Origin: a phage | Length of the DNA stretch: 64,000 nucleotides | Assembly: GCA_024875585.1 (NCBI GenBank) | Contig: GCA_024875585.1_4107.1 | Strand: one strand, 5' to 3' | Shown: piece after piece, positions 24,726 to 35,061 of the stretch | Position numbering within the stretch: the stretch's first letter is position 1 | Layout of the letters: each line of letters begins with the position of its first letter | Translations under genes and position numbers: made by a program | The notes under the pieces: generated by a model | The model's input: only the letters and a program-made list of their open reading frames with translations | Database searches by the model: none | What the model was told of the DNA's origin: nothing

Positions 24726-25381
24726 TTCAACATAGAGACAGGGGAAGCTCCGCAGGGTAAGCATTGGACAGGCTTTAACATATGTTATATATGTTAAAAT
24801 TCAGCCTGGACAAATGCGATCACTAGGATTCTCCCCAGGCTAAACCCCGTAATCATATATAAACATTTAAGTAATCATTTATAATCATTGTGGTGATCAG
24901 TAGTGATTAGTATTGAGTACTAGAGTGTAATAGAGTACAGGAATGTGCACGTTTAATCAAGAACGTAGCAGTACTGATATGCCACTAAGTAGGCAGAGGA
25001 AGTCTGCCGTACTTTGTAGTTTCCAAGCTCCTTTTCCATTTTGCAAATTACATCAAATGTAATCAAAAGTAATCACGTAATGATTAGTACTGAAATATTA
25101 GTTTCATCTTTTTTCAAATACCTTTTTACCCTTCGGGATAAATGTATTTTTATCCATTTACCTTTGGGGTAAAATCCCATTACCCCTTGAGGCTCCAGCA
25201 AAAAGTTGGAAAGTACTCCATCGTAAATATGGATCGTAAAAATTTTGGAGTACCTATGAAATAAAAGTTGGATCTTCGAAAGTTGAAATTTACGTTGGGA
25301 CATTGATGTTTTTTGGGATATAATGAGTTTTGTAGTGATGAAGTTTGTACGATTACAGTACTGAATAATGAAAGAAAGCTA

Positions 25382-25409
25382 TTGACATTATGATTCAGTA
25401 CTGTATAAT
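25382..25409 (+). promoter_or_regulatory. orphan sigma70-type promoter (no ORF downstream)
   Basis: TTGACA(25382-87)-16nt-TATAAT(25404-09) with cagtacTG extended -10. Confidence 0.55.
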
Positions 25410-25811
25410 GTTCTACATAGAGAGATGAGTTGCCGCAAACAATTCATTCACTCTACCTCCTGTCGTGAGACAGTACAGAAAAGATAGTTCCTCCTATGCG
25501 TGGTACATCTTTTTATAACCTCTTTTTTAGTAATATAAACAGTACTGGTATTAACAGAATGGTATCAGTACTGACTTTAATCTAATACATTATACCACCA
25601 GCACAAGCTGGTGGATTCCCTCTAACAGTATTCAGTACTACATGATAGTCTTCATCCTCCTAGGGTAACATAGTGAGGGCTATTGTGGGAGTACTGAATA
25701 CTCCTTTCAAAAGATAGAATAATGGTATAGTACCGACGGATTTTGGGCGTAGTTACCCTGGGTGGATTTTGGACGTAGATATGTCTAGCCCTCCAGAAGT
25801 CTGGAAGTAAA

Positions 25812-25923
25812 GATGGCTATCCATCTAGACGGCTAAACGGATAGATTTCTAGATGGCTGTATGGCTAGACGTTTGGATGGCTAAACGGCTAGATGGTTAC
25901 ACGTCTGGAAGTATAGACGGCTA
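25812..25923. repeat. 8-bp-periodic iteron-like array (about 14 units, consensus GAYGGCTA)
   Basis: gatggcta tccatcta gacggcta aacggata gatttcta gatggctg tatggcta gacgtttg gatggcta aacggcta gatggtta cacgtctg gaagtata gacggcta; flanked by gtctggaagta at 25797 and 25901. Confidence 0.7.
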
Positions 25924-26084
25924 AATCAAAATTTTTATTTTGTTTTTCCAATAGTTCCCCTACCGCGTGAGGATATTTTTCCCCGCAGTATCTGGAGTTA
26001 GATTTTTCTGAATCTGGAATCATTATCTAATAAACTGGGGGCAATGTCAACCGCCTGGATGAATATTTTTAAAAATAATCTAGT

Positions 26085-26174
26085 ACTGAATTTTGGGCGT
26101 AACTATGCACCCGGTGGGCTTGAGTCTTTCTCGACTTGATGAAACTATTATACAGTACTAGAAAAATAAAGCAA
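26085..26174 (-). ncRNA. candidate small-RNA unit (own promoter + CCCAC-core transcript)
   Basis: minus reading TTGCTT(26174-69)-16nt-TATAAT(26152-47), then agtttcatcaagtcgagaaagactcaagCCCACCGGGTGCatagttacgcccaaaattc; no ORF. Confidence 0.35.
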
Positions 26175-26261
26175 TACCCTAAACGCAAAAAAATTTAATT
26201 AATTTGCTTGCTATCCTGGGCCGTAATATGGTACTATTAGTTCAGTACTGAGAAAGTGCTT

Positions 26262-26290
26262 TAACCTGCTAGGGTGCGGGAGTGTATCCT
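26262..26290 (+). repeat. partial plus-orientation copy of the CCCAC-N-GGGTGCGGGAGTGTATC element
   Basis: ctgctAGGGTGCGGGAGTGTATCc; faces the reverse copy at 26313-26324. Confidence 0.5.
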
Positions 26291-26294
26291 TTTT

Positions 26295-26391
26295 AAATTA
26301 TATGAATTTTGGGCGGATCTCGGCACCCTGTGGGTCAGTGCCTTGTGTCCGGCTTATGTAGTAATTATACGCTTTTTCAGTACTGAGTCAA
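26295..26391 (-). ncRNA. candidate small-RNA unit (own promoter + CCCAC-core transcript)
   Basis: minus reading TTGACT(26391-86)-16nt-TATAAT(26369-64), then tactacataagccggacacaaggcactgaCCCACAGGGTGCcgagatccgcccaaaattc; GGCAC/GUGCC can close an 11-nt loop. Confidence 0.35.
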
Positions 26392-26628
26392 TAGCTAAAA
26401 ACAAAAATAATTGAAAATAATTTAACGCGTTTAAACGGCCCGTAAAGCCCTGGAGTGATTGGAATGGTACAAATGTATAGCTTAGGTGTATTAATGCGTT
26501 AGAATGCGATTGAGGCCGTTTTATGGGGTGTAGTGGTGATTTGATTGATTCAGTACTGAATAATAGTACTGAAAGATAGTTCCCCTATATAGAAAGAAAA
26601 CTATTTTAAAAGTACATGTAGAAAGTAC

Positions 26629-26687
26629 TTGCAAACTATCTCAATTGGCGTATAATGTTTTACATCGAGAGCGGGAACACTTCCCGC
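26629..26687 (+). promoter_or_regulatory. early-type promoter + GGGAA/TTCCC leader hairpin
   Basis: aaAGTACTTGCAA-16nt-TATAAT(26651-56); hairpin gcgggaa-cac-ttcccgc 26671-87. Confidence 0.65.
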
Positions 26688-26711
26688 TGCACATAAAGAG
26701 AGATTAAAACG

Positions 26712-27074
26712 ATGGCTACTCAAATCAATAAAATTATTGCTAACCTGGTTAACTTCCGCGACGAGATGAAAGGTCTTCCGGCTGAAACGGTAAAAATTCA
26801 CATTTCAGCTTATCGGGAACTTATTGCAATGTTACCGCTTAAGCGTGAACAATACGCCGCTACCGTGATGCTTGATGCGATGATCCATAAGATGATCGCC
26901 AGTGATTTAACGATGGTTTATCAGTACATGGGCGAAAATTTCGCGGTGTCTGGTAAGCCAGTACCAGGGATGGCAACTACTGAGGAATTGCACGGTTTAA
27001 ATTTAAAACAAGATGCATGGGATAATATGCCTCGTTTCCTGGTATGGGCTGACAGTGGCAAAATTTACAAATAA
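26712..27074 (+). CDS. hypothetical protein (120 aa)
   Basis: clean ORF after promoter/hairpin; purine-rich SD agagag. Confidence 0.8.
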   Translation: MATQINKIIANLVNFRDEMKGLPAETVKIHISAYRELIAMLPLKREQYAATVMLDAMIHKMIASDLTMVYQYMGENFAVSGKPVPGMATTEELHGLNLKQDAWDNMPRFLVWADSGKIYK

Positions 27075-27088
27075 GTTTAATAAAGTAC

Positions 27089-27174
27089 TTGCATACTAAG
27101 TTAAAACAAGTATAATACTTTCTATCAGGTGCAACGGGAAGTTTTTAAACTTCCCTATAGGGGAATAGTTCCCC
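27089..27174 (+). promoter_or_regulatory. early-type promoter + tandem leader hairpins
   Basis: TTGCAT-16nt-TATAAT(27111-16); hairpin A gggaagtttttaaacttccc 27136-55; hairpin B ggggaa-tag-ttcccc 27160-74. Confidence 0.65.
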
Positions 27175-27195
27175 ACTATATAAGAGGATTAAAAA

Positions 27196-27435
27196 ATGGC
27201 TAAATCAAAAATGTTCTTAGGTCACAAAAACAAAACTCATTGGAATGTAAGCCTTTGGATTAATAACGATGAGTCATTGTACCGGTTGGCCCAGGACTTT
27301 ATTGCCGCCAACACTAATCGCAATGATGCGGCCCGTCATATGATGTTATTTTTAGAACAGACTGGACAAGATAAAACACCGGACGGATTCAAATATAGCA
27401 CTACTGCGATCCGTGCGGCGATGGTTGGAATGTAA
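27196..27435 (+). CDS. hypothetical small protein, paralog of 29228..29467
   Basis: GHKNKTHWNVSLWINNDESLYR...TPDGFKYSTTAIRAAMVGM shared with paralog. Confidence 0.85.
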   Translation: MAKSKMFLGHKNKTHWNVSLWINNDESLYRLAQDFIAANTNRNDAARHMMLFLEQTGQDKTPDGFKYSTTAIRAAMVGM

Positions 27436-27447
27436 TAGAATTTATTT

Positions 27448-27483
27448 AAAGTACTATCGCAAAAAATGATAGTACTTTATAAT
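27448..27483 (+). promoter_or_regulatory. promoter embedded in 11-bp inverted repeat
   Basis: AAAGTACTATC(27448-58)...GATAGTACTTT(27468-78) overlapping TATAAT(27478-83); weak -35 ATCGCA. Confidence 0.5.
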
Positions 27484-27520
27484 AGTGTTTTATTCATACA
27501 CCAACGATAAGGGCAACAGC

Positions 27521-27787
27521 ATGAATATTAAGTATTTTGCGACGCGTGAACAAGCTCGGAAGGCGGCGAAAGTGGAAGGTGCAACGTTTAAAGATATGGG
27601 CATACAATCGGAACGTGGTAAACGTTGGGCCATTGTAAAGCGTAGTACAGCCAGATCATTACAGTACTGGCTATCAGCTTTAAAAAGTCCTGATAGTGTA
27701 TCGCGTCGAGTGGTAGAAATAAAGCTCGACCGTAAGGGGAATCGTGTTACCGTGTACCGTACTAAAAAGATTGCAGTGCTTGAATAA
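27521..27787 (+). CDS. hypothetical small protein, paralog of 39641..40036
   Basis: MNIKYFATREQARKAAKVEGATFKDMG...DRKGNRVTVYRTKK shared pattern; ATG 27521. Confidence 0.8.
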   Translation: MNIKYFATREQARKAAKVEGATFKDMGIQSERGKRWAIVKRSTARSLQYWLSALKSPDSVSRRVVEIKLDRKGNRVTVYRTKKIAVLE

Positions 27788-27794
27788 AAAGTAC

Positions 27795-27853
27795 TTGCAA
27801 ACTATGTTTAATGGCGTATAATGTTTTACATCGAGAGCGGGAACACTTCCCGC
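27795..27853 (+). promoter_or_regulatory. early-type promoter + leader hairpin
   Basis: TTGCAA(27795-800)-16nt-TATAAT(27817-22); gcgggaa-cac-ttcccgc 27837-53. Confidence 0.65.
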
Positions 27854-27873
27854 CTATAACCTGGAGTAATAAA

Positions 27874-28104
27874 ATGACTAATATGTATATGACTGAAGTT
27901 AAAACCGTAAAAGATACTACCACTAATAAAACTACTTACTTACAGCGGATCTGTGGTGTATGGCAACGTATCAGCAAATCAAAGTACTTTAAATTAACAT
28001 CATATGCCAATCGTTCGGATTCATTCAGTACTGAAATAAAAGGTAATAAAGTACACCAATACGGCACTTATTATTATTATAGCCTGGCCGCGATTGCAGT
28101 ATAA
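27874..28104 (+). CDS. hypothetical small protein (76 aa)
   Basis: ATG 27874 after ctggag; the track start 27811 lies in the promoter. Confidence 0.7.
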   Translation: MTNMYMTEVKTVKDTTTNKTTYLQRICGVWQRISKSKYFKLTSYANRSDSFSTEIKGNKVHQYGTYYYYSLAAIAV

Positions 28105-28134
28105 GTAGTTTACAAATCTTTACAATTGCCGGTA

Positions 28135-28225
28135 TTGACTTAAAATGTCAGTACTGGCATAATGTATCTATTGAAACGAACAATTTGGCCCACGGGGTGC
28201 GGGAGTGTATCTATAGAAAAAGTAG
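28135..28225 (+). ncRNA. candidate small-RNA unit, rightward member of a convergent pair
   Basis: TTGACT(28135-40)-17nt-CATAAT(28158-63), then gtatctattgaaacgaacaatttggCCCACGGGGTGCGGGAGTGTATCtatag; no ORF. Confidence 0.35.
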
Positions 28226-28308
28226 TTTAGTACAGTTACAATTGTGCACCCGGTGGGTTAGCTGTTGTCATGGGATATATTATACCAGTACTGGATAGTG
28301 CTGTCAAT
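28226..28308 (-). ncRNA. candidate small-RNA unit, leftward member of a convergent pair
   Basis: minus reading TTGACA(28308-03)-18nt-TATAAT(28284-79), then atatcccatgacaacagctaaCCCACCGGGTGCacaattg. Confidence 0.35.
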
Positions 28309-28352
28309 ACCTTTTTACTATTCAGTACTGAAAACTATTTGATAAAAAGTAC

Positions 28353-28380
28353 TTGCAAACTATGTTTAAAGGCGTATAAT
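28353..28380 (+). promoter_or_regulatory. early-type promoter driving structured leader
   Basis: TTGCAA(28353-58)-16nt-TATAAT(28375-80); upstream ttcagtactgaa palindrome. Confidence 0.6.
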
Positions 28381-28386
28381 GTTTTA

Positions 28387-28466
28387 CATCAGGACGGGGA
28401 ATGAAATAAGTAACTTCCCGTTAAGTAGCCCAGGAGTAAGGCATACGAAAAACTCCCCTGATAAAA
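28387..28466 (+). ncRNA. structured leader / candidate RNA motif (three-way junction), copy 1
   Basis: P1 atcagg/cctgat, P2 acgggga/ttcccgt, P3 ggagt/actcc, helices abutting; near-identical copy at 38447. Confidence 0.45.
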
Positions 28467-28470
28467 TAGT

Positions 28471-28498
28471 TTGACAATTGTTTTTAAAAGCGTATAAT
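28471..28498 (+). promoter_or_regulatory. second sigma70-type promoter after the structured leader
   Basis: TTGACA(28471-76)-16nt-TATAAT(28493-98). Confidence 0.55.
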
Positions 28499-28530
28499 AC
28501 TTACATCAACTACTGAATGAGGGTTACAAA

Positions 28531-29142
28531 ATGAAAACTATCACTACTACTACTTATGTTATGGATTTTTCTGAATTGAACGCAGAACAAAAAACGTCAG
28601 CTATCGAACTGGTTCGGGAACGTGAAAAAAACTTAAACGACGATTATTTTTCTGAAAGTGAAATTGAATACTATAAAGAAACAGTATTGCCGGAATATGG
28701 CATTAATGAAGCTGAAATACAATTCAGTGGTTTTTGGTCGCAGGGTGACGGTGCATCAATTAGTACTGACCACGTTGACGCAGTGAAGTTTTTACGTAAG
28801 GTAAGAGCATTAACTAAGTATCGCTCAATCCGTCACCTGCTGAATGAAGATGATTTGGCGATGAGTGTAAAGCGTTCTCACTCCCGCTACTCACATGAGA
28901 ACACTGTAAGCGGGTACATTGAATCGGCTTACACTGATTTAACCGCAAAACAAGAAACGTTAGTTAATGAGCTTGAGGAACTACTCACTGATACTATTCG
29001 TGAATTATCCCGCAAGTTGTACCGTGATTTAGAAAATGCATATGAGGATCAATTCACTACTGAAAACATCGTATCACTGATTGAGGGTAACGAATATCAA
29101 TTCAATGTTATTGATGGCGTAGTAGAATCAATTGCATATTAA
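28531..29142 (+). CDS. hypothetical acidic protein (203 aa)
   Basis: SD tgaggg; contains FSGFWSQGDGASISTD motif that I cannot place in a family. Confidence 0.85.
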   Translation: MKTITTTTYVMDFSELNAEQKTSAIELVREREKNLNDDYFSESEIEYYKETVLPEYGINEAEIQFSGFWSQGDGASISTDHVDAVKFLRKVRALTKYRSIRHLLNEDDLAMSVKRSHSRYSHENTVSGYIESAYTDLTAKQETLVNELEELLTDTIRELSRKLYRDLENAYEDQFTTENIVSLIEGNEYQFNVIDGVVESIAY

Positions 29143-29149
29143 AAAGTAC

Positions 29150-29209
29150 TTGCAAACTAAGTTTAAAAGCGTATAATACTTTATATCGAGGCGGGGAATG
29201 GTTCCCCGC
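29150..29209 (+). promoter_or_regulatory. early-type promoter + leader hairpin
   Basis: TTGCAA(29150-55)-16nt-TATAAT(29172-77); gcggggaa-tgg-ttccccgc 29191-209. Confidence 0.65.
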
Positions 29210-29227
29210 TCAAACGAGGATTTAAAA

Positions 29228-29467
29228 ATGGCTAGTACTAAAACTTACAACGGACACAAAAACAAAACTCATTGGAATGTAAGCCTTTGGATCAATAACG
29301 ATGAATCATTGTACCGGATTGCTCAAAATTGCATCGCTCAAAGTAAAACGAAAGATATTGCAGCGGAATTTATGTACCGCAGATTAAAAGCCAACGGTAT
29401 TACTACAACGCCGGACGGATTCAAGTATAGCACTACGGCGATCCGTGCTGCAATGGTTGGAATGTAA
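29228..29467 (+). CDS. hypothetical small protein, paralog of 27196..27435
   Basis: ATG 29228 after cgagga; NGHKNKTHWNVSLWINNDESLYR...AIRAAMVGM. Confidence 0.85.
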   Translation: MASTKTYNGHKNKTHWNVSLWINNDESLYRIAQNCIAQSKTKDIAAEFMYRRLKANGITTTPDGFKYSTTAIRAAMVGM

Positions 29468-29486
29468 TATTCAGTACTATAACAAT

Positions 29487-29506
29487 GGCGGGGAATAGTT
29501 CCCGCC
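29487..29506 (+). promoter_or_regulatory. GGGAA/TTCCC hairpin between genes
   Basis: ggcggggaa-tag-ttcccgcc followed by ttta. Confidence 0.45.
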
Positions 29507-29524
29507 TTTACTAAGGGTTATCTA

Positions 29525-29806
29525 ATGAGTAAAGTAATAAAGTACAATGTGTTAAGCAAATCATTGTCTATCAGTGAATGCACCGATGGTTTTTGGCTGT
29601 ACGATGAAACGCGTGGCATGAATTTAGCTATGCAGGAGAAAACTGCTGATGCGGCATATCTTAAAGCACTGGAATACTACCAGAAGCGTTTAACGGAAGT
29701 AGAAAACGATTATAATAACCTTAAAGCGAAAGTGGATAATTTCGTTGGTCAATTCGTTGACGATGACGAGGGGCACTACTGCGACCGTTGTGGATCTTAC
29801 AGTTAA
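29525..29806 (+). CDS. hypothetical protein (93 aa)
   Basis: SD taaggg; C-terminal HYCDRCGSYS. Confidence 0.75.
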   Translation: MSKVIKYNVLSKSLSISECTDGFWLYDETRGMNLAMQEKTADAAYLKALEYYQKRLTEVENDYNNLKAKVDNFVGQFVDDDEGHYCDRCGSYS

Positions 29807-29823
29807 GTACTAAGGATTATATA

Positions 29824-30027
29824 ATGAGTGATTTAATTGAACGTATCAAAGAGCTTGAAGAAAAAGAATTGCAGTTGATCGGTTTACAGAATAAAATCTA
29901 TCATGATTTGGGGAGTTTTATCAATGCGTGGGATAATGGCGATCCTGATGCGTTACCTGCTAACCGCCAGGCAATGATCAATGATGTGCGTGGTGTCTTT
30001 GAGTATGTTTTAAAGCAATTAAATTAA
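29824..30027 (+). CDS. hypothetical small protein (67 aa, coiled-coil-like)
   Basis: ATG 29824 after taagga. Confidence 0.7.
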   Translation: MSDLIERIKELEEKELQLIGLQNKIYHDLGSFINAWDNGDPDALPANRQAMINDVRGVFEYVLKQLN

Positions 30028-30036
30028 AAAAAGTAC

Positions 30037-30096
30037 TTGCAATTAGTTTTTAGTACTGTATAATGTTTTACATAGAGGGGAGAAATGGTTCTCCCT
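30037..30096 (+). promoter_or_regulatory. early-type promoter + leader hairpin
   Basis: AGTACTTGCAA-16nt-tAGTACTGTATAAT(30059-64); aggggagaa-atgg-ttctccct 30076-96. Confidence 0.65.
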
Positions 30097-30114
30097 GGTA
30101 ATGAGGAAAATACA

Positions 30115-30336
30115 ATGGCTAATATCACTACTCTTTCTCAACTGGAAGCACTGGTTAAATCTATGCGGGAACATGCCGACAAAATCGGCGTAAAAGATCC
30201 AGCCGTTTGCTTCTGCGACGAAATGAATGATGATACATTGGTAATAGCAGAAGTTCAGGACGTTTCTAACTATTCATCGCGTTACACTGGCGGCGTAGCA
30301 AATAAAGGTGACTTCTGTTTATACCTTACAAAATAA
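30115..30336 (+). CDS. hypothetical small protein (73 aa)
   Basis: ATG 30115 after tgaggaa. Confidence 0.75.
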   Translation: MANITTLSQLEALVKSMREHADKIGVKDPAVCFCDEMNDDTLVIAEVQDVSNYSSRYTGGVANKGDFCLYLTK

Positions 30337-30341
30337 CAACG

Positions 30342-30368
30342 AGGGGATCAATTGATCCCCTTTCTTTT
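30342..30368 (+). terminator. intrinsic terminator
   Basis: aggggatca-at-tgatcccct + tttcttttt. Confidence 0.7.
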
Positions 30369-30371
30369 TCA

Positions 30372-30469
30372 GTACTGAATAATTTAATAGACGGATCTAT
30401 GCACCCGGTGGGTTAGTGACTGTTTCGTCTTTATGTAGTAATTATGCCAGTACTGGATGCACTTGTCAA
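30372..30469 (-). ncRNA. candidate small-RNA unit (own leftward promoter + CCCAC-core transcript)
   Basis: minus reading TTGACA(30469-64)-17nt-CATAAT(30446-41), then tactacataaagacgaaacagtcactaaCCCACCGGGTGCatagatccgtcta...; runs into the palindromic terminator at 30342. Confidence 0.35.
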
Positions 30470-30502
30470 CAACTATTTTTCAAATACTTTTTATTAAAAT
30501 AC

Positions 30503-30556
30503 TTGCAATTAGTTTTTAAACGCGTATAATGTTTTGCATAGGGGGAGCGGTTCCCC
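30503..30556 (+). promoter_or_regulatory. early-type promoter + leader hairpin
   Basis: TTGCAA(30503-08)-16nt-TATAAT(30525-30); gggga-gcggt-tcccc 30541-56. Confidence 0.6.
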
Positions 30557-30577
30557 TGGTAACTAAGGAATAAGAAA

Positions 30578-30814
30578 ATGGTCGAACAAATCAAATCAAC
30601 GTCTTCGAATGTAACGGGAACGGTAGCACACTTTACTTGTGATGAATCGCGGGGCGTTCCCTATTGTGCTGTACATGTAAACACTGAGGGTAACTACTGG
30701 TTTACGGTTTACGGATCATATTCATTTGGACGGCCAGGGCATCAAAAAATTCTGGATAAAGTACAACCAACGGGTAAAAATATCACTGCCGAAATGTTTT
30801 ATAAAAACAAATAA
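30578..30814 (+). CDS. hypothetical small protein (78 aa)
   Basis: SD taagga. Confidence 0.8.
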   Translation: MVEQIKSTSSNVTGTVAHFTCDESRGVPYCAVHVNTEGNYWFTVYGSYSFGRPGHQKILDKVQPTGKNITAEMFYKNK

Positions 30815-30831
30815 AAGTACTTGATAATAGT

Positions 30832-30888
30832 TTGACTATGTATTACAGTACTGTATAATAGATACATAAGGGGCGAATAGTTTGCCCC
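30832..30888 (+). promoter_or_regulatory. sigma70-type promoter + leader hairpin
   Basis: TTGACT(30832-37)-16nt-TATAAT(30854-59); ggggcgaa-tag-tttgcccc 30870-88. Confidence 0.6.
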
Positions 30889-30908
30889 TAGTACAAAGGG
30901 GAAACATT

Positions 30909-31139
30909 ATGCCAGGCCGAATAGTTTTACTTAACGCTGGAAGTACTACACAACTCCTTAACGCCGTGTATTATGATATTGAAACGAGCGTCAATCTTAT
31001 CAGTACTGTAGTATTGTTGGACACTGGAAAGGTCGCAAATGATAAAGCGATTGCAGGTATACTAACGGATCTTAAACCAGGTTGCAGTACTCCAATAACT
31101 TTAAATGATAAAGTGTTTAATATTTTACTAACTGATTAA
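30909..31139 (+). CDS. hypothetical small protein (76 aa)
   Basis: ATG 30909 after aaagggga. Confidence 0.7.
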   Translation: MPGRIVLLNAGSTTQLLNAVYYDIETSVNLISTVVLLDTGKVANDKAIAGILTDLKPGCSTPITLNDKVFNILLTD

Positions 31140-31145
31140 GTACAT

Positions 31146-31168
31146 AGCCCACCTGGTGGGCTTTTTTG
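31146..31168 (+). terminator. intrinsic terminator
   Basis: agcccac-ctg-gtgggct + tttttt. Confidence 0.75.
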
Positions 31169-31211
31169 TTTTTGTAGTACTGCATACTTTGAAAATAGTT
31201 TTAAAAAAGTA

Positions 31212-31239
31212 GTTGACATTACCGCAAAAAGGCGTAGAA
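31212..31239 (+). promoter_or_regulatory. sigma70-type promoter
   Basis: TTGACA(31212-17)-16nt-TAGAAT(31234-39). Confidence 0.55.
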
Positions 31240-31245
31240 TGTATT

Positions 31246-31330
31246 ACATCAAGACGGGGAGCACTAAGTAGACCGCCAGTAAGTCGAACGAAAAACTGGA
31301 CACGTCGAGAAAACTTTGATACACTAACTA
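31246..31330 (+). ncRNA. structured leader, diverged third copy of the 28387/38447 motif
   Basis: keeps ctaagtagacc and acgaaaaa; P3 is ccagt/actgg instead of ggagt/actcc; P1 atcaag/ctttgat. Confidence 0.35.
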
Positions 31331-31363
31331 ACATAAACTAAACTTTAATTGAGGATTTATAAA

Positions 31364-31846
31364 ATGGCTAATGTAAAATCATTTCTGAAAGCACTGATTT
31401 CTAACGATACTGCTATTGCTGCTGAATTGCTGGCGGATCTGGATAGCGATACCATGAAAGCGGTACGCAACAATTTTAACATTGCGTACAGTGAAGCTAA
31501 AGAACTGCAAGCCAAAAAGATAGCAGAACTGGAAGAACAGAAAAAAGCCCGTGAAGAAGAATTACAAGCAACTATTGAAAGTATTCAGGCGGCGGTTGCA
31601 GGGTTGGATCTGGATGTAGTTGTAGAAATGGCACATAAAGCCCTGGCAGTTAAGTACGGTGAAGATAAGCCAGTATCTAAACCTAAAAAATGGATTCAGG
31701 AACGCGTAACGGTTGTTCTTGATAATGGCGAGGAACATTTAATTCCCGTGCGTGGTAACTGCATTGCGGTAGTTCTGGATGCTATCAAAGAAAGCGGATT
31801 GACTCGCGAGGAATGGATCGAAGCTCACCGCAAGATTGAAGCATAA
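31364..31846 (+). CDS. hypothetical protein (160 aa, helical/coiled-coil middle)
   Basis: ATG 31364 after tgagga. Confidence 0.8.
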   Translation: MANVKSFLKALISNDTAIAAELLADLDSDTMKAVRNNFNIAYSEAKELQAKKIAELEEQKKAREEELQATIESIQAAVAGLDLDVVVEMAHKALAVKYGEDKPVSKPKKWIQERVTVVLDNGEEHLIPVRGNCIAVVLDAIKESGLTREEWIEAHRKIEA

Positions 31847-31867
31847 CAATTAAAGTACTGAATCAAT

Positions 31868-31895
31868 AGCCCACTTTTTATAGTGGGCTTTTTTG
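31868..31895 (+). terminator. intrinsic terminator
   Basis: agcccact-ttttat-agtgggct + tttttt. Confidence 0.75.
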
Positions 31896-32049
31896 TGCTT
31901 ATCGTTTACCATGCCACCAGCACCGCCTAGAATCGATTCTAACGCATTAAACTGATTATCTGATGAATCGCCCTAGCTGGTGGCGTTAATGCCGTTAGAA
32001 CGCGATTGAGGATGTTTAAAGTATTTTTGCAAAAAGTAATAAAAAGTAC

Positions 32050-32077
32050 TTGCACGATTAAGAGATTAGAGTATAAT
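32050..32077 (+). promoter_or_regulatory. early-type promoter
   Basis: AGTACTTGCAC-16nt-TATAAT(32072-77). Confidence 0.6.
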
Positions 32078-32122
32078 TAATTACATCAAGACAAGACACC
32101 TTAACTAACTGAGGATATAAAG

Positions 32123-32275
32123 ATGAATACTTATGAACTGGATTGTTTTACTTTACAAGTAATGTCAGTATGCAGTAAAAAAGATTGGTCATCAAAGGAA
32201 TTTAAAGCAGTTATTGCGTGTGCAAAACACGGCAAGACTATCAATGAAACGGCATCAATCATTGATAAACTTTAA
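32123..32275 (+). CDS. hypothetical small protein (50 aa; below cutoff), paralog of 36122..36265
   Basis: ATG 32123 after tgagga; ...HGKTINETASIIDKL resembles ...DGKSVKDTVKIIRKM. Confidence 0.55.
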   Translation: MNTYELDCFTLQVMSVCSKKDWSSKEFKAVIACAKHGKTINETASIIDKL

Positions 32276-32283
32276 AAAATAGT

Positions 32284-32312
32284 TTGACAATAGTTTTAAG
32301 TACTGCGATAAT
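32284..32312 (+). promoter_or_regulatory. sigma70-type promoter
   Basis: TTGACA(32284-89)-17nt-GATAAT(32307-12). Confidence 0.55.
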
Positions 32313-32345
32313 ACATACATCAACTACTGAATAGGAATAAAAACA

Positions 32346-32573
32346 ATGGCTATCGTAATCACTCGCGTAACTGGTACTACTGGCACTGCTTCAACTGTTG
32401 CTGTAATTACTAATAAGAAAGGTGCAGAATTACATTTTGCAATGGATAAATGGGCCGTTAATGAGTTTGGTCAGTGGGCAAGTGTAGAATACATTGAAAC
32501 CTATCAAGTGCCATCGATTAGCTTAACTGATTTAGGTGTAGAACGTATCCTTTGTCTGGATGAATTAAATTAA
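32346..32573 (+). CDS. hypothetical small protein (75 aa)
   Basis: SD tagga; MAIVITR.. N-terminus like 32886 and 35841. Confidence 0.75.
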   Translation: MAIVITRVTGTTGTASTVAVITNKKGAELHFAMDKWAVNEFGQWASVEYIETYQVPSISLTDLGVERILCLDELN

Positions 32574-32581
32574 AAAAGTAC

Positions 32582-32642
32582 TTGCAAAGTAAATCGAATA
32601 AAGTATAATACATTACATCAAGGGGAGAAAATGGTTCTCCCC
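32582..32642 (+). promoter_or_regulatory. early-type promoter + leader hairpin
   Basis: TTGCAA(32582-87)-16nt-TATAAT(32604-09); ggggagaa-aatgg-ttctcccc 32622-42. Confidence 0.65.
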
Positions 32643-32660
32643 ACTAAGAGGAAACTAAAA

Positions 32661-32804
32661 ATGAAAACTTGTCAATGTGGTAAAAAATCTATTACTGGTT
32701 TGAAACGGGGCGTTTCACTTTGCCAGTACCATTATAATTTACAAGTATGGGGTAAAGAATGGGCCGACCAGGTTGAAGCATCAAAGAAAGCAAAAAGTAA
32801 GTAA
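32661..32804 (+). CDS. hypothetical Cys-rich small protein (47 aa; below cutoff)
   Basis: ATG 32661 after aagagga; MKTCQCGKK...SLCQYHYN. Confidence 0.55.
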   Translation: MKTCQCGKKSITGLKRGVSLCQYHYNLQVWGKEWADQVEASKKAKSK

Positions 32805-32805
32805 A

Positions 32806-32885
32806 ATTATTATCACAGTACTATTGACATAGATTGATAGTACTGGCATAATAGATTTTATCAAGACAACTAAGAGGAAATTAAA
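32806..32885 (+). repeat. about 80-bp promoter cassette, copy 1 of 4
   Basis: tatcaCAGTACTATTGACAtagattgATAGTACTGgCATAATagattttatcaagacaactaagaggaaattaaa; TTGACA 32824-29, CATAAT 32847-52; 9-bp inverted arms 32816-24 / 32837-45. Confidence 0.7.
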
Positions 32886-33098
32886 ATGGCTATCATTATT
32901 AAAAACAAAGTTAATAAGACTATCGTTAAACTGGCAGAAGTGAAAGAAGGTTATAAAGTATCTTGGGAGGGTTTTTATCGGACGTTTACTGATATTGACG
33001 ATGCAATCAATTACTACACTGATACGGTTAAAAACTTTGTTCGTGCTGATGTGGTTATGGCAGTGGCAACATATAAAGCATCAAAAGAAAGTAAGTAA
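32886..33098 (+). CDS. hypothetical small protein (70 aa), paralog of 35841..36020
   Basis: MAIIIKNK...FYRTFTDIDDAINYYTDTVKNF vs MAIIAKTE...YVREYETVDEAFESYIRQVNKA. Confidence 0.8.
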   Translation: MAIIIKNKVNKTIVKLAEVKEGYKVSWEGFYRTFTDIDDAINYYTDTVKNFVRADVVMAVATYKASKESK

Positions 33099-33100
33099 AA

Positions 33101-33180
33101 AATATTATCACAGTACTATTGACATAGATTGATAGTACTGGCATAATAGATTTTATCAAGACAACTAAGAGGAAATTAAA
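33101..33180 (+). repeat. promoter cassette, copy 2 of 4
   Basis: near-identical to 32806-32885; TTGACA 33119-24, CATAAT 33142-47. Confidence 0.7.
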
Positions 33181-33525
33181 ATGGCTAACATCAATACTAT
33201 AGCAGCACAAAATATCAACCTGTCTTCTGTTGAAGTTGTACACATTGCCGCCCGGCGTTGGTTCCAGGCGTCTTATGGTAATACGTATTTCTCTTTAACG
33301 GTAGATGTTGAAATCAATGGCGAATTTATTGAAGTAGTAAACGTGCCGTTCCAATATGGCTACGGGGATCATTTTGACACTGTAGCAATGGAAGAATTAA
33401 GCAAGGTTATTAATATGGAAGGTAAAGAGTTTTTACGCGGTTCTTATCTTTCCCGTTTTTGCCGTGATAATAATATTACTGTTTATAGTTCTGTTAGTGA
33501 TGTTAAACGCAAAAAAGATCTTTAA
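33181..33525 (+). CDS. hypothetical protein (114 aa), paralog of 39222..39545
   Basis: YGNTYFSL..V..FQYGYGDHF...DVKRKKDL vs NGNTYHSC..FTYGYGTQG...DVKRKKDM. Confidence 0.85.
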   Translation: MANINTIAAQNINLSSVEVVHIAARRWFQASYGNTYFSLTVDVEINGEFIEVVNVPFQYGYGDHFDTVAMEELSKVINMEGKEFLRGSYLSRFCRDNNITVYSSVSDVKRKKDL

Positions 33526-33605
33526 TTAGCTTTACTTTATGCAGATACTTTGATACAGTGTCTGCATAGGGGAAAGAAATTAAATCAACTTAAGAGGATA
33601 GTAAA

Positions 33606-33875
33606 ATGAAAAATATCAGTACTTTAATCGATGCAGGTACACATGTTCGTCGGTCTATGGTTGCAACCAGTTCTACAAAACAAGTAGCGAGCGGTTATCT
33701 TGTATTTGTGCACGATGGTAAACTCCTGGAACGTTCAATCAATTTTGATGTTAAAAACAATTGCCGTTTTATTATCTTTAAGCGTGAGCAATATAAAATT
33801 GATTTACCAGCGAAGCCCATTAGTGGGGCGTACAACGTTCAATCATTGTTTGAGCGTCAACCATACACCTATTAA
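33606..33875 (+). CDS. hypothetical protein (89 aa)
   Basis: SD taagagga. Confidence 0.75.
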   Translation: MKNISTLIDAGTHVRRSMVATSSTKQVASGYLVFVHDGKLLERSINFDVKNNCRFIIFKREQYKIDLPAKPISGAYNVQSLFERQPYTY

Positions 33876-33926
33876 TCAAAACAACGTTAGCGGTCGATTT
33901 AGGCCGCTTATACTGGGGATTATATA

Positions 33927-34199
33927 ATGAATACTAATCAAGTACTGAATGAGATTGAAAGCATCATTAAACCGATGAAGCGTACTGATGCTATGTTAAC
34001 ACCGGAAGAATGCCGCCTTTATGAGCGTTACAGCGTCGAACAAGTCCAGGCAATGGCTATGGCTACCCCAGCCGTTAAACAGCCTGAGAACGCGTTACAG
34101 GACGTTACAGGGGATTATATCATCAATCCAGTACTAGGGAAGATGGAAGCAATCACCGAAGAACAAAAAGACTACTTAAGCCAGTACTTAAAAGGTTAA
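33927..34199 (+). CDS. hypothetical protein (90 aa)
   Basis: SD tgggga. Confidence 0.7.
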   Translation: MNTNQVLNEIESIIKPMKRTDAMLTPEECRLYERYSVEQVQAMAMATPAVKQPENALQDVTGDYIINPVLGKMEAITEEQKDYLSQYLKG

Positions 34200-34204
34200 T
34201 TAAT

Positions 34205-34414
34205 ATGCTTACTGTACAGGATAAGATCGACATCTTAAAGGTTAATATGTATGTGATTGATGCAGATCCTGAAAAAGTATTTGCATACGATGATTCTAAT
34301 CGTAGTCCTTTTTATTGTAGTCATGTAGTTGGATATGTGCCGTTATCGTATGTTATCGAAAGAGTGGTTGATTCAGCATACAAACATTTTTTAGAAAATA
34401 GTACTTGCAATTAG
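34205..34414 (+). CDS. hypothetical protein (69 aa)
   Basis: in-train ORF; its 3' end overlaps the next promoter. Confidence 0.65.
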   Translation: MLTVQDKIDILKVNMYVIDADPEKVFAYDDSNRSPFYCSHVVGYVPLSYVIERVVDSAYKHFLENSTCN

Positions 34415-34464
34415 TTTTTAGTACTGTATAATGTTTTACATGAAGGGGGGAAATGATTCTCCCC
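34405..34464 (+). promoter_or_regulatory. early-type promoter + leader hairpin
   Basis: TTGCAA(34405-10)-16nt-TATAAT(34427-32); gggggaaa-tga-ttctcccc 34445-64. Confidence 0.6.
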
Positions 34465-34482
34465 AATAACAGGAGAAACAAA

Positions 34483-34635
34483 ATGAAACAATACAACGCT
34501 CGGTTTGATGTTACTATCGGCAACGGCAAAGGTCAATTCTCTTTCAGTACTCGTAAGAGTTATACAGAAAACTTCTTGCGTAATTGTGCACTGACCGCCG
34601 CACAAATTAAACATTATTTTCAGGCTAAAAAATGA
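34483..34635 (+). CDS. hypothetical small protein (50 aa)
   Basis: ATG 34483 after caggag. Confidence 0.6.
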   Translation: MKQYNARFDVTIGNGKGQFSFSTRKSYTENFLRNCALTAAQIKHYFQAKK

Positions 34636-34721
34636 AATCATTAGCTTATTATAGCTCGGCCCTGGTCGGTGCATTGATCGCGGCATTGTTAGTAGCTTAT
34701 CTATTCTTTATGGTGATTTAA
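34632..34721 (+). CDS. 29-aa hydrophobic single-TM peptide (below cutoff)
   Basis: ATGA overlap; MKSLAYYSSALVGALIAALLVAYLFFMVI. Confidence 0.45.
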   Translation: MKSLAYYSSALVGALIAALLVAYLFFMVI

Positions 34722-34859
34722 ATGAATCCTAACGGTATAATTTACAGTACTCCTAAAACGAAAGCAGATAAAGCGGAAGCACGTAAAGCGAAAGTAAAGG
34801 AGTACATCAAGCAAGGTATGACACGAAAGGCGGCGATTCTAAAAGCTAAAAATAAATGA
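34722..34859 (+). CDS. 45-aa basic peptide (below cutoff)
   Basis: ATG directly abuts previous stop; MNPNGIIYSTPKTKADKAEARKAKVKEYIKQGMTRKAAILKAKNK. Confidence 0.45.
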   Translation: MNPNGIIYSTPKTKADKAEARKAKVKEYIKQGMTRKAAILKAKNK

Positions 34860-34866
34860 AAAAAAG

Positions 34867-34898
34867 TGGTTGACTTCGGTCAGCCATTTTGCTATTAT
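34867..34898 (+). promoter_or_regulatory. bifunctional terminator hairpin / promoter
   Basis: tggttgac-ttcg-gtcagcca+tttt; TTGACT(34870-75)-17nt-TATTAT(34893-98). Confidence 0.6.
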
Positions 34899-34904
34899 AT
34901 ATTC

Positions 34905-34960
34905 ATTGAGAGATAGCTCACTAGCCCACAGGGTGCGGGAGTGTATCTATTATATAAGTA
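34905..34960 (+). ncRNA. candidate short transcript with CCCAC-N-GGGTGCGGGAGTGTATC core
   Basis: attcattgagagatagctcactagCCCACAGGGTGCGGGAGTGTATCtattatataag; core 34925-36; no ORF. Confidence 0.35.
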
Positions 34961-35002
34961 TTGAGTACTGAAAACTATTTTAAAAGTACATGTAGAAAGT
35001 AC

Positions 35003-35061
35003 TTGTAAACTATGTTTAAAGGCGTATAATGTTTTACATCGAGAGCGGGAAACGGTTTCCC
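35003..35061 (+). promoter_or_regulatory. early-type promoter + leader hairpin
   Basis: TTGTAA(35003-08)-16nt-TATAAT(35025-30); gggaaa-cgg-tttccc 35047-61. Confidence 0.6.

What the first reader, a model, noticed from the sequence alone, without database searches (positions are those of the whole stretch)
25741..30475. ORF-less mini transcription units sharing a CCCAC-N-GGGTGC core, on both strands (candidate small-RNA family)
A GC-rich core stands out from the AT-rich background between 25.7 and 30.5 kb.

Copies:
- Plus orientation, cccacNgggtgc(gggagtgtatc): 28189-28211, and a 5'-degenerate copy at 26271-26290.
- Reverse orientation, gcacccNgtggg: 26107-26119, 26313-26324, 28247-28258 and 30401-30412, plus a weak copy at 25754-25765.

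Four reverse copies each lie 30-45 nt downstream of their own leftward sigma70-type promoter (read on the minus strand):
- TTGCTT-16-TATAAT, 26174-26147
- TTGACT-16-TATAAT, 26391-26364
- TTGACA-18-TATAAT, 28308-28279
- TTGACA-17-CATAAT, 30469-30441

These units would therefore be transcribed against the otherwise uniformly rightward gene flow. The plus copy at 28189 has a rightward promoter (TTGACT-17-CATAAT, 28135-28163).

None of the predicted 50-100 nt transcripts contains an SD-preceded ORF.

At 28135-28308 the two promoters converge about 100 bp apart, and the two cores are 11/12 complementary. The two RNAs would be mutually antisense, and each could form a long hairpin.

I do not recognise this element from any described RNA family.
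Basis: partly seen in the sequence, partly recalled or inferred. Interest (0 to 1): 0.8.

Follow-up and report, generated by a model that had tools for sequence, protein, structure and literature searches.

The report
Multi-copy early small-RNA module, jumbo phage
The terminal repeat of this giant E. coli phage carries ten copies of a short, promoter-coupled, folded non-coding RNA module that is conserved in every related jumbo phage checked here, matches no described RNA family, and has no known function.

Summary
The window comes from an Asteriusvirus, a RaK2-like jumbo coliphage. CCCAYNGGGTGC occurs 9 times with at most one mismatch (0.09 expected). A tenth, variant copy brings the total to ten units, at 26.1-43.7 kb. 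All lie inside the ~20 kb direct terminal repeat.

Each core sits at a fixed distance from its own sigma70-type promoter, so the RNA would start at the A of "CAU". The module reads: 5' hairpin H1 (purine-rich loop), linker, CCC-AYN-GGGUGC, N6, YRYCY.

A covariance model finds 92 units in 11 sources. These are jumbo phages of Escherichia, Klebsiella, Salmonella, Cronobacter, Pectobacterium, Serratia and Yersinia, plus uncultivated viral contigs. None is confirmed in bacterial genomes. There is no Rfam match and no consistent ORF.

H1 shows abundant compensatory changes. The core can fold in two mutually exclusive ways, and sequence variation is compatible with both.

Minus-strand units stop quickly at a shared terminator or face a plus-strand unit. 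Plus-strand units read into the next gene.

Best reading: an immediate-early, multi-copy structured RNA acting through a conserved partner, which has not been identified. A cis-acting antitermination leader is the main rival. No transcription has been shown experimentally.

The parts
26093..26174 (-). Unit 1: promoter TTGCTT-16-TATAAT (26174-26147). RNA module 26139-26093: H1 AGUC-GAGAAA-GACU, core 26118-26107, H2 3' strand CGCCC.
   Evidence: (44 bits, E = 1e-8)
26208..26290 (+). Unit 2, plus-strand partner of a convergent pair: promoter TTGCTA-18-TACTAT (26208-26237). H1 AGUAC-UGAGAAA-GUGCU (26244-26260). Variant core CCU-GCU-AGG-GUGC. GGGAGTGTATCC followed by T5 (terminator-like).
   Evidence: terminator-like 26271-26290; partial hit 26270-26289, E = 0.05; the rest is my reading of the sequence
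26309..26391 (-). Unit 3, minus-strand partner of the pair: promoter TTGACT-16-TATAAT (26391-26364). H1 GCC-GGACACAA-GGC. Core 26334-26323. H2 3' strand CGCCC.
28135..28214 (+). Unit 4, plus-strand partner of the second convergent pair: promoter TTGACT-17-CATAAT (28135-28163). H1 AUUG-AAACGAA-CAAU. Core 28189-28200. GGGAGTGTATCTAT.
   Evidence: 34 bits
28232..28307 (-). Unit 5, minus-strand partner: promoter TTGACA-17-TATAAT (28307-28279). A-rich 5' segment without a clear H1. Core 28257-28246. The read-through RNA pairs core to anti-core (-27.4 kcal/mol, z = -4.4).
   Evidence: 26 bits
30342..30469 (-). Unit 6, lone minus-strand unit: promoter TTGACA-17-CATAAT (30469-30441). Module 30433-30387 (H1 GAC-GAAACA-GUC, core 30412-30401). 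It then runs into hairpin 30361-30342, the bidirectional terminator of the converging gene 30085-30336. Predicted RNA about 100 nt.
34866..34950 (+). Unit 7: terminator hairpin GUGGUUGAC-UUCG-GUCAGCCAU (34866-34887), whose 5' arm holds the -35 TTGACT (34870-34875). -10 TATTAT at 34893-34898. Module 34904-34950 (H1 UGAG-AGAUAG-CUCA, core 34925-34936). No terminator before the next gene, 35029-35424.
   Evidence: (57 bits, E = 9e-12)
38275..38359 (+). Unit 8: hairpin 38275-38294 containing the -35 (38278-38283). -10 at 38302-38307. Module 38313-38359 (core CCCAUAGGGUGC, 38334-38345).
   Evidence: (60 bits)
41282..41366 (+). Unit 9: hairpin 41282-41303 containing the -35 (41286-41291). -10 at 41309-41314. 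Module 41320-41366 (core 41341-41352).
   Evidence: (60 bits)
43573..43652 (+). Unit 10: hairpin 43573-43594 containing the -35 (43577-43582). -10 at 43600-43605. Module 43617-43652 with a degenerate H1 (core 43627-43638).
   Evidence: (36 bits)
25740..25775 (-). Promoter-less relic of the 3' half of a unit: CCACCCAGGGUAACUACGCCCAAAAU, flanked by a second ACGUCCAAAAU. Probably not functional.
   Evidence: not found by the model at E <= 1
24988..45050 (.). Approximate extent of the direct terminal repeat. It is mapped from fEgEco12, whose ends were confirmed by restriction digests (DTR 20,993 bp). All units lie inside it.

Best explanation
The units are genes for a family of short, structured, non-coding RNAs made by the host sigma70 RNA polymerase immediately after the terminal repeat enters the cell.

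**Shown by sequence analysis.**
- Each unit couples a strong promoter to an RNA that would begin at the A of 'CAU'.
- The RNA carries, in order:
  - a 5'-terminal hairpin H1 (3-5 bp, purine-rich 6-8 nt loop) in about two thirds of units;
  - a YUAR linker;
  - the invariant core CCC-AYN-GGGUGC;
  - a six-nucleotide stretch;
  - a YRYCY segment.
- The core can fold in two mutually exclusive ways, with similar free energies:
  - M', a mini-hairpin pairing R-CCC with GGG-U;
  - H2, a hairpin pairing GGGUG with YRYCY.
- There are ten units per repeat here, so about twenty per virion DNA.

**Inferred.**
- The ~50-nt module is itself the functional product.
- It acts by binding a partner conserved across Enterobacterales or across these phages. 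A protein is most likely, making the RNA an abundant decoy, sponge or cofactor during host take-over.
- H1 protects the 5' end and may add to recognition.
- Minus-strand units are kept short by a shared bidirectional terminator or by a head-on plus-strand unit.
- Plus-strand units release the same module at the 5' end of read-through transcripts.

The partner and the physiological effect are unknown.
For: **More than chance, and confined to one region.**
- 9 cores against 0.09 expected.
- Model hits in the window lie only at 26.1-43.7 kb, inside the terminal repeat.

**Fixed promoter coupling.** All 66 units have a promoter matching 8-12 of 12 consensus positions. The -10 ends 5-7 nt before the module in 63 of them, and 8-11 nt before it in three truncated window hits.

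**RNA structure.**
- H1: all four pairs show changes on both sides. 94-95% of cells are paired. 100-129 compensatory cells are seen, against 35-44 in shuffles (0 of 500 shuffles reach the observed value). Registers slid by 1-3 columns give 14-62% paired.
- Model-free test of H1: 42 of 62 units have a hairpin of at least 4 bp at the fixed position, against 7.5 +/- 2.4 in shuffles. About 22 distinct stems occur.
- H2: 97.6% paired. The 3' strand varies only Y<->Y and R<->R. G-U pairs fit only this strand.
- M': three independent CCU...AGG compensations, in CBB at 16111, in the window at 26265 and in Yersinia phage fHe-Yen9-04 at L015 4522. An R-U closing pair is also seen.

**Conservation.**
- 92 units in 11 sources.
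- Exact-pattern matches occur only in jumbo-phage contigs, within one ~20 kb stretch per genome.
- The two bacterial MAG matches are not confirmed by the model.
- No match in 5,426 E. coli genomes.

**Not coding**.

**Transcripts kept short.**
- Lone minus-strand units meet a terminator hairpin about 25 nt after the module in several genera.
- Convergent pairs with 45-46 nt between cores recur at matching positions in CBB, GAP32 and the window.

**Indirect precedent.** The distantly related jumbo phage PA5oct has two highly transcribed ORF-less RNAs in its terminal repeat (PMC7318152).
Against: - No transcript, 5' end or 3' end has been observed for any of these phages.
- Plus-strand units, about two thirds of the family, have no terminator. 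They sit 20-60 nt ahead of the next gene's promoter, which fits a cis-acting leader equally well.
- About a third of units lack a convincing H1.
- H2 has no change on both sides, and M' has only three, so neither fold of the core is proven.
- Single-sequence folds are no more stable than shuffles.
- No partner was found. The neighbouring genes are all of unknown function.
- PA5oct lacks the motif.
Confidence: 0.45

Rival explanations
1. Cis-acting leader that makes RNA polymerase resistant to termination, working like lambda nut/N or HK022 put. The nascent module (a boxB-like H1 plus the conserved core) stays with the elongating polymerase, alone or with a phage or host factor. This lets it read through the many terminators of the early region.
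For: - The module always lies at +1 to about +47 of a strong promoter.
- Two thirds of units point with the genes.
- Four window units start just after the upstream gene's terminator, and overlap it.
- They have no terminator of their own before the next gene.
- Many H1 loops begin with GNRA-type sequences (GAGA, GCGA) on a short stem. From my own knowledge, this resembles boxB.
- Units recur every 2-3 kb through a terminator-rich region.
Against: - One third of units point the other way and are followed within about 25 nt by a terminator or by a head-on unit. That placement makes little sense for an antitermination device.
- No boxA-like sequence lies near any unit.
- The model finds nothing in the HK022 immunity region searched, where I expected the put sites; they are not annotated in the record.
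- No arginine-rich N-like peptide was found among the repeat's ORFs.
- Every downstream gene has its own promoter.
Confidence: 0.2
2. Regulatory/recombination cassette of the PeSL type, as in T4-like phages. The repeated promoter-plus-stem-loop sequences serve mainly as portable promoter/terminator units and as homology patches for modular gene shuffling. The conserved core would be kept by gene conversion, and H1 would only stabilise the 5' end of the mRNA.
For: - The plus-strand units combine a terminator hairpin with an overlapping sigma70 promoter, which is how PeSLs are defined (PMC2839356, PMC4122927).
- The region holds small genes of unknown function, each with its own promoter.
- Homology with relatives breaks at promoter sequences, for example at 26622.
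Against: - PeSLs are followed directly by a Shine-Dalgarno sequence and a start codon. Here a ~47-nt non-coding module follows, and minus-strand units have no gene at all.
- Gene conversion cannot produce about 22 different compensated H1 stems next to an invariant core.
- Unit positions, including the convergent pairs, match between genera. This argues against recent mobility.
Confidence: 0.12
3. Transcription-primed replication origins or other DNA-level sites. The strong promoter would drive a G-cluster RNA (GGGUGCGGGAG) into an AT-rich stretch to form an R-loop primer, as at T4 oriF/oriG or ColE1. Alternatively, the convergent pairs would act as cruciform or collision sites near the repeat ends.
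For: - The units have strong promoters with no gene.
- A G-rich RNA segment is followed by AT-rich DNA.
- Units occur on both strands and only in the terminal repeat.
- Convergent pairs lie about 1 kb and about 3-4 kb from the left end in three genera. CBB and GAP32 have a further pair near the right boundary of the repeat.
Against: - H1 covariation, and G-U-compatible variation confined to one strand, point to a folded RNA rather than a hybrid or a duplex site.
- The G cluster after the core is not conserved; many units have AUAGAU or AUAAAU there.
- Ten origins in 18 kb would be unusual.
Confidence: 0.08

Closest known systems
PeSL cassettes (promoter-early stem-loops) of T4-type phages (Arbiol et al. 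2010, PMC2839356; Comeau et al. 2014, PMC4122927)
   Same: - Many repeated copies of a strong sigma70-type early promoter combined with a GC-rich stem-loop terminator.
- Found in a plastic region of small genes of unknown function.
- In the plus-strand units, the terminator stem even contains the -35.
   Different: - PeSLs lead straight into a ribosome-binding site and a gene. These units lead into a conserved, folded ~47-nt non-coding module.
- These units occur on both strands and as convergent pairs.
- Their RNA part shows covariation and a core conserved across genera.
Lambda nut sites (boxA + boxB with N) and HK022 put RNAs: promoter-proximal RNA elements for processive antitermination
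   Same: - Short structured RNA elements placed right after early promoters.
- Present for both transcription directions.
- H1 resembles a small hairpin with a GNRA-like purine loop.
   Different: - No boxA.
- No similarity in the HK022 immunity region searched, where I expected put.
- No N-like protein found.
- There are 8-13 copies rather than two.
- A third of the copies run directly into terminators or into each other.
Multi-copy bacterial and phage small RNAs with a shared constant part (for example Qrr1-5, CsrB/RsmZ-type protein sponges, and phage RNA anti-CRISPRs made of solitary repeat units)
   Same: - Several paralogous, separately promoted short RNAs share an invariant motif while other parts vary.
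- The likely logic is dosage or titration.
   Different: - No sequence or structural similarity to any Rfam family.
- GGA motifs are present in only some H2 loops.
- I see no resemblance to enterobacterial CRISPR repeats; this comparison is from memory and was not tested with a tool.
- Most copies lack their own terminator.
ncRNA001 and ncRNA002 of Pseudomonas jumbo phage PA5oct (PMC7318152)
   Same: ORF-less regions inside the long terminal repeat of a distantly related jumbo phage, highly transcribed by the host polymerase (1-5% of phage reads).
   Different: - They are 236 and 451 nt long.
- The model finds no trace of the module anywhere in the PA5oct repeat.

Membership tests
Any Rfam 15 family | Covariance-model score at or above the family's gathering threshold | tested here: not met
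   No hits in the whole window at gathering thresholds. In E-value mode on two unit regions, only chance-level hits far below threshold, mostly terminator-like.
tRNA / tmRNA | ARAGORN detection | tested here: not met
   0 genes in the window.
T4-type PeSL cassette | Strong sigma70-like early promoter with an AT-rich upstream region | tested here: met
   66 of 66 units have a promoter matching 8-12 of 12 consensus positions; most have A-runs upstream.
T4-type PeSL cassette | Stem-loop terminator overlapping or adjacent to the promoter | tested here: inconclusive
   Met for plus-strand units 7-10 and for many in other genera: a hairpin with a UNCG loop contains the -35. Not seen at the promoters of the minus-strand units.
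T4-type PeSL cassette | Shine-Dalgarno sequence and start codon of the downstream gene at the 3' end of the cassette | tested here: not met
   The promoter is followed by the non-coding module. Only 9 of 66 units have any ATG ORF through the core, in three frames. Minus-strand units have no downstream gene.
Lambda-type nut site | boxA (CGCUCUUUA-like) next to the hairpin | tested here: not met
   GCTCTTTA with up to 1 mismatch occurs at chance level (48 against 50 expected), and no match lies within a unit.
Lambda-type nut site | boxB: 5-bp stem with a GNRA-like pentaloop, bound by an arginine-rich N protein | tested here: inconclusive
   H1 is a 3-5 bp stem with a purine-rich loop of 6-8 nt, not 5. 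No N-like arginine-rich peptide was found among the repeat's ORFs. Binding cannot be tested here.
HK022 put RNA | Sequence and structure similar to putL/putR | tested here: not met
   The model's best hit in HK022 24000-31000 is 8.6 bits, E = 0.25. The put sites are not annotated in the record, so their presence in the searched region rests on my memory of the genome map.
HK022 put RNA | Factor-independent antitermination in cis | not testable with these tools
   Needs transcription assays.
Type I toxin-antitoxin (overlapping convergent RNAs) | A small toxic ORF on one of the two overlapping transcripts | tested here: not met
   No conserved ORF or reading frame. The 22-codon ATG ORF at 28162 starts inside the -10, upstream of the predicted start site.
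Classical Hfq-type small RNA gene | Own promoter plus a Rho-independent terminator with a U tail, giving a 50-250 nt RNA | tested here: inconclusive
   Met for lone minus-strand units: window 30387, RaK2 7709 and 14777, 7t3 8654 and 17222. Not met for plus-strand units. Hfq binding is untestable here.

The most novel reading that the evidence does not exclude
The module is an RNA decoy or cofactor made in about twenty gene copies from the first DNA to enter the cell. It captures a factor conserved across Enterobacterales, such as a defence sensor, a ribonuclease, an RNA chaperone or RNA polymerase itself. That would make it an RNA-based host take-over or anti-defence device, common to all RaK2-like jumbo phages and unrelated to any known RNA family.
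Probability: 0.25. Interest if true: 0.85.

Novelty: new variant of a known kind. Interest (0 to 1): 0.62.

Why it matters
RaK2-like jumbo phages (345-380 kb) are being isolated for therapy against E. coli, Klebsiella, Salmonella and plant pathogens. Most of their genes have no known function (83% of predicted products in phAPEC6, PMC7247149). Their ~20 kb terminal repeat is, by analogy with T5 and PA5oct, the first DNA expressed.

This work defines a conserved, folded RNA module there:
- 8-13 units found in each of the six repeats covered in full;
- each unit has its own near-consensus host promoter;
- the core is identical across phages of at least seven host genera.

That gives a concrete, testable entry point into the early programme of these phages. 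The module is a short RNA that can be synthesised, tagged, pulled down or expressed from a plasmid.

It also adds a well-supported candidate to the small set of phage-encoded structured RNAs. And it shows that promoter/terminator cassettes of the PeSL type can carry an RNA payload rather than only driving genes.

Tried and rejected
- **Known RNA families:** Rfam at gathering thresholds and in E-value mode; tRNA and tmRNA. Nothing found.
- **Protein coding or leaderless mini-ORFs:** a few units start with AUG at +1 and give similar peptides, but only 9 of 66 have an ATG ORF through the core, in three frames. Rejected.
- **Stable fold of single units:** z-scores of +1.1 to -1.9, not convincing. 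Only the comparative analysis was informative.
- **H2' (UGC pairing with GUA next to the mini-hairpin):** variants ACG and CCG break it. Rejected by reading alignment A1.
- **Parallel triple helix of CCCAC on GGGUG:** a one-nucleotide linker cannot span it. Rejected by geometry.
- **put or nut homology:**. Not met.
- **PA5oct ncRNAs as homologues:**. No.
- **Host homologue or mimic:** no match in E. coli genomes. The 2 hits in 185,579 bacterial and archaeal genomes were not confirmed by the model.
- **CsrA-type GGA loops and RegB-type GGAG sites in the H2 loop:** present in only part of the family. Not defining.
- **T7/T3-type promoter resemblance:** the Serratia variant CCCUAUAGGG resembles such promoters. 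From the papers read, these phages encode sigma factors; that they lack a single-subunit polymerase is my recollection, not something tested here. A promoter role would also not explain the H1 covariation. Rejected.
- **Functions of neighbouring genes:** Pfam found nothing; PHROGs gave 'unknown function' as the best match for all ten, plus one weak secondary 'DNA ligase' family hit on 35029-35424. Uninformative.
- **Literature:** seven searches and the CBB, phAPEC6, fEgEco12 and Sharanji papers. None describes the element.

Full report
**What the window is.**
The 5.2 kb around the finding is 87-95% identical to Asteriusvirus genomes: jumbo coliphages of the RaK2/121Q/PBECO4 group, 345-385 kb. 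Several records start about 485-510 bp upstream of window 25500. One of them, fEgEco12, has physical ends confirmed by restriction digests and a 20,993-bp direct terminal repeat (DTR) (PMC13070987). Its base 1 aligns with window 24988, and the repeat would end near 45.05 kb. vB_Ec-M-J annotates a 21.5 kb DTR from the same point. The finding therefore lies in the left part of the DTR. This is a region of small rightward genes of unknown function, each with its own promoter.

**Checking the observation.**
- CCCACNGGGTGC occurs 9 times with at most one mismatch, against 0.09 expected.
One of those was mis-located by 10 nt: the true position is 26323-26334.
- Four more plus-strand copies lie at 34925, 38334, 41341 and 43627, outside the reported range.
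- The 'degenerate' plus-strand copy at 26271-26290 is a nearly intact unit with a variant core.
- The weak copy at 25754 is a promoter-less relic.
- All named promoters exist.
- The window therefore holds ten units, all between 26.1 and 43.7 kb. A covariance model scored with filters off finds no other convincing copy in the 64 kb; the next hit has E = 0.4.

**Anatomy.**
I extracted every copy in its own orientation. I then did the same in six other phages:
- Pectobacterium CBB;
- Cronobacter GAP32;
- Klebsiella RaK2;
- Serratia BF;
- Salmonella 7t3;
- Escherichia EJP2.

These gave 62 units with one plan.

*Promoter.*
- Each unit has a sigma70-type promoter matching 8-12 of 12 consensus positions; 51 of 66 match at least 10.
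- The -10 ends 5-7 nt before a 'CAU/CAA/UAA' in 63 of 66 units. It ends 8-11 nt before it in three window hits whose 5' part is truncated.
- This places the start on the A.

*RNA module, 5' to 3'.*
- H1: a 3-5 bp hairpin with a purine-rich loop of 6-8 nt (GAGAAA, GCGAAA, AGAACAA, AGAUAA).
- A YUAR linker.
- The core CCC-AYN-GGGUGC.
- Six nucleotides of the form NNARNU.
- A segment of the form (R)YRYCY: GUAUCU, CCGUCU, CCGCCC or ACGCCC.
- AU.

*Plus-strand units at 34.9-43.6 kb.* The -35 TTGACT lies inside the 5' arm of a GC-rich hairpin with a UUCG or UCCG loop. An A-run precedes the hairpin and a T-run follows it, running into the -10. This is a terminator for the upstream gene fused to the unit's promoter. 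The outer stem of the hairpin covaries between copies.

**Is it an RNA structure?**
Folds of single units are no better than shuffles, so the evidence is comparative. A covariance model built from 20 units finds 66 units in seven sources. It finds 92 in eleven once Yersinia fHe-Yen9-04 and three uncultivated viral contigs are added.

*H1.*
- All four pairs show changes on both sides, and 94-95% of cells are paired.
- 100-129 compensatory cells are observed, against 35-44 in column shuffles (0 of 500 reach the observed value).
- Slid registers give 14-62% paired.
- That alignment is fitted to the model, so I repeated the test without it. 42 of 62 units have a hairpin of at least 4 bp ending 2-6 nt before the core, against 7.5 +/- 2.4 after shuffling (maximum 16 in 1000 shuffles). 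About 22 different stem sequences occur.
- U-G pairs occur in H1 and fit only the promoter-sense strand.
- About a third of units have only a 3-bp stem or an A-rich stretch instead.

*The core: two exclusive folds.*
- **H2** pairs GGGUG with YRYCY. It is 97.6% paired. All variation on its 3' strand is Y<->Y or R<->R, so the pairs stay G-C/G-U and U-A/U-G. There is no change on both sides, because the 5' strand is invariant.
- **M'** pairs R-CCC with GGG-U around a 3-4 nt loop. It is RNAalifold's own choice. Three independent CCU...AGG double changes support it: CBB 16111, window 26265 and fHe-Yen9-04 L015 4522. So does A/G opposite U.
- The two folds are close in energy: M' about -4 kcal/mol, extended H2 about -5 to -8.
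- I cannot decide between them. A switch, or selection of one fold by a bound factor, are both possible.

*Coding.* Only 9 of 66 units have an ATG ORF through the core, in all three frames. Coding is excluded.

**Distribution.**
- An exact-pattern scan of IMG/VR returns 13 loci. All are on contigs of 345-378 kb, apart from one 109-kb fragment. Within each genome the matches fall in one ~20 kb stretch; in CBB they fall in both copies of the repeat.
- A scan of one genome for each of 185,579 bacterial and archaeal species gives two MAG matches, which the model does not confirm.
- 5,426 complete E. coli genomes have no match.
- The Pseudomonas jumbo phage PA5oct is a distant relative with a 39-kb repeat and two highly transcribed ORF-less RNAs in it (PMC7318152). 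It lacks the module.
- Rfam 15 has no match.
- The papers on CBB, phAPEC6, fEgEco12 and Sharanji do not mention the element.

**Context and what it implies.**
- About two thirds of units point with the genes. These have no terminator, and the next gene's own promoter (AAAGTACTTGCAA-16-TATAAT) follows 20-60 nt later.
- Lone minus-strand units are followed, about 25 nt after the module, by the hairpin terminator of the converging upstream gene. This holds in the window (30361-30342), RaK2 and 7t3; CBB and BF have an AGTACT-flanked hairpin at the same spacing. The predicted RNA is about 100 nt.
- The remaining minus-strand units face a plus-strand unit, with 45-46 nt between cores.
  - Such pairs lie about 1 kb and about 3-4 kb from the left end in CBB, GAP32 and the window (26208-26391 and 28135-28307).
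  - CBB and GAP32 have a further pair near the right boundary of the repeat.
  - Read-through of a pair gives a long core/anti-core hairpin (-27.4 kcal/mol, z = -4.4), and the two RNAs are complementary.
- Every minus-strand unit is thus stopped quickly. I take this as a sign that the short module is the product, not a long antisense or read-through RNA.
- Unit promoters have near-perfect -35 boxes. Gene promoters have a weak -35 (TTGCAA) embedded in a conserved AAAGTACTTGCAA box and a perfect -10. This suggests two regulatory classes, with the units in the immediate-early class. This is inference only.

**Mechanism.**
*Shown:* a conserved, promoter-coupled module with a covarying 5' hairpin and an invariant core whose variation is compatible with pairing. 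It is present in ten copies per repeat and is specific to RaK2-like jumbo phages.

*Inferred (confidence 0.45):* the module is an abundant immediate-early non-coding RNA that works by binding a conserved partner.
- The core is identical across phages of Escherichia, Klebsiella, Salmonella, Cronobacter, Pectobacterium, Serratia and Yersinia. The partner should therefore be conserved among these hosts or among the phages.
- H1 would protect the 5' end.
- The many copies would provide dosage.

*Rivals.*
- **Nut/put-like cis antitermination leader (0.2).** This fits the plus-strand units. The terminated minus-strand units argue against it, as do the absence of boxA and of an N-like protein, and the lack of any hit in the HK022 immunity region I searched for put.
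- **PeSL-type promoter/terminator and recombination cassette (0.12).** The promoter-terminator fusion is shared with PeSLs (PMC2839356, PMC4122927). PeSLs, however, lead into a ribosome-binding site, and gene conversion cannot explain the compensated stems.
- **Transcription-primed origin or other DNA-level role (0.08).**

**Novelty and verdict.**
The element belongs to no described family. In kind it combines a PeSL-like early promoter/terminator cassette with a small structured RNA payload, so I rate it a new variant of a known kind. It is a solid, well-delimited candidate RNA family whose function is open.

Interest is 0.62. The structural and phylogenetic support is strong and experiments are straightforward. 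But nothing yet shows that the RNA accumulates or what it does.

Noticed in passing
window 25595-43692 (11 sites; one more at 3596): Chi sites (GCTGGTGG) are strongly over-represented: 11 against 0.49 expected. Ten lie inside the terminal repeat, eight of them on the plus strand, and an inverted pair sits at 25595/25607, about 600 bp from the left physical end. Several lie next to units (38365, 43685). This suggests protection of the linear ends from RecBCD.
   Followed up: partly
window, 46 sites, e.g. 28149, 28286, 30448, 26243, 26378: The palindrome CAGTACTG occurs 46 times against 0.75 expected. It often sits in the promoter spacer just before the -10 (CCAGTACTGG[C/T]ATAAT) of unit promoters, and upstream of gene promoters. 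It may be an operator for a phage or host regulator.
   Followed up: no
window 26624-42635 (16 sites within one mismatch of AGTACTTGCAA): Gene promoters of a second class: AAAGTACTTGCAA-16-TATAAT, followed by a GC-rich 5'-UTR hairpin (GGGGAAnnnUUCCCC type) and a ribosome-binding site. Apart from one one-mismatch site at 17904, they occur only inside the repeat. Homology with several relatives breaks at one of them (26622), as expected for PeSL-like modular shuffling.
   Followed up: partly
window 34866-34887, 38275-38294, 41282-41303, 43573-43594: Intrinsic-terminator hairpins with UUCG or UCCG loops. The 5' arm contains the -35 hexamer of the next promoter, and the T-run merges into its -10. 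These are compact terminator-promoter fusions. The same design, with a different outer stem, appears in CBB, GAP32, RaK2, BF and 7t3.
   Followed up: partly
window 25824-25909: Tandem 16/24-nt repeats (GGCTAGATGG / GGCTAAACGG, about 3 copies, 72% matches), roughly 0.85 kb from the left physical end. They look iteron-like and could be a packaging, end-recognition or replication signal.
   Followed up: no
window 28384-28466 and 38446-38528: A second repeated ORF-less leader of about 83 nt, lying between a gene-type promoter and a further promoter (TTGACA-16-TATAAT at 28471-28498). Both copies fold into the same closed two-hairpin shape (-18.7 and -20.1 kcal/mol, z about -2.1 and -2.25). It also recurs in fEgEco12. 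Possibly another structured RNA.
   Followed up: partly
window 24988: The left physical genome end of fEgEco12 (confirmed by restriction digests) maps here. The window therefore spans the junction between the unique right-hand part of the genome and the terminal repeat. The repeat would end near 45.05 kb.
   Followed up: yes
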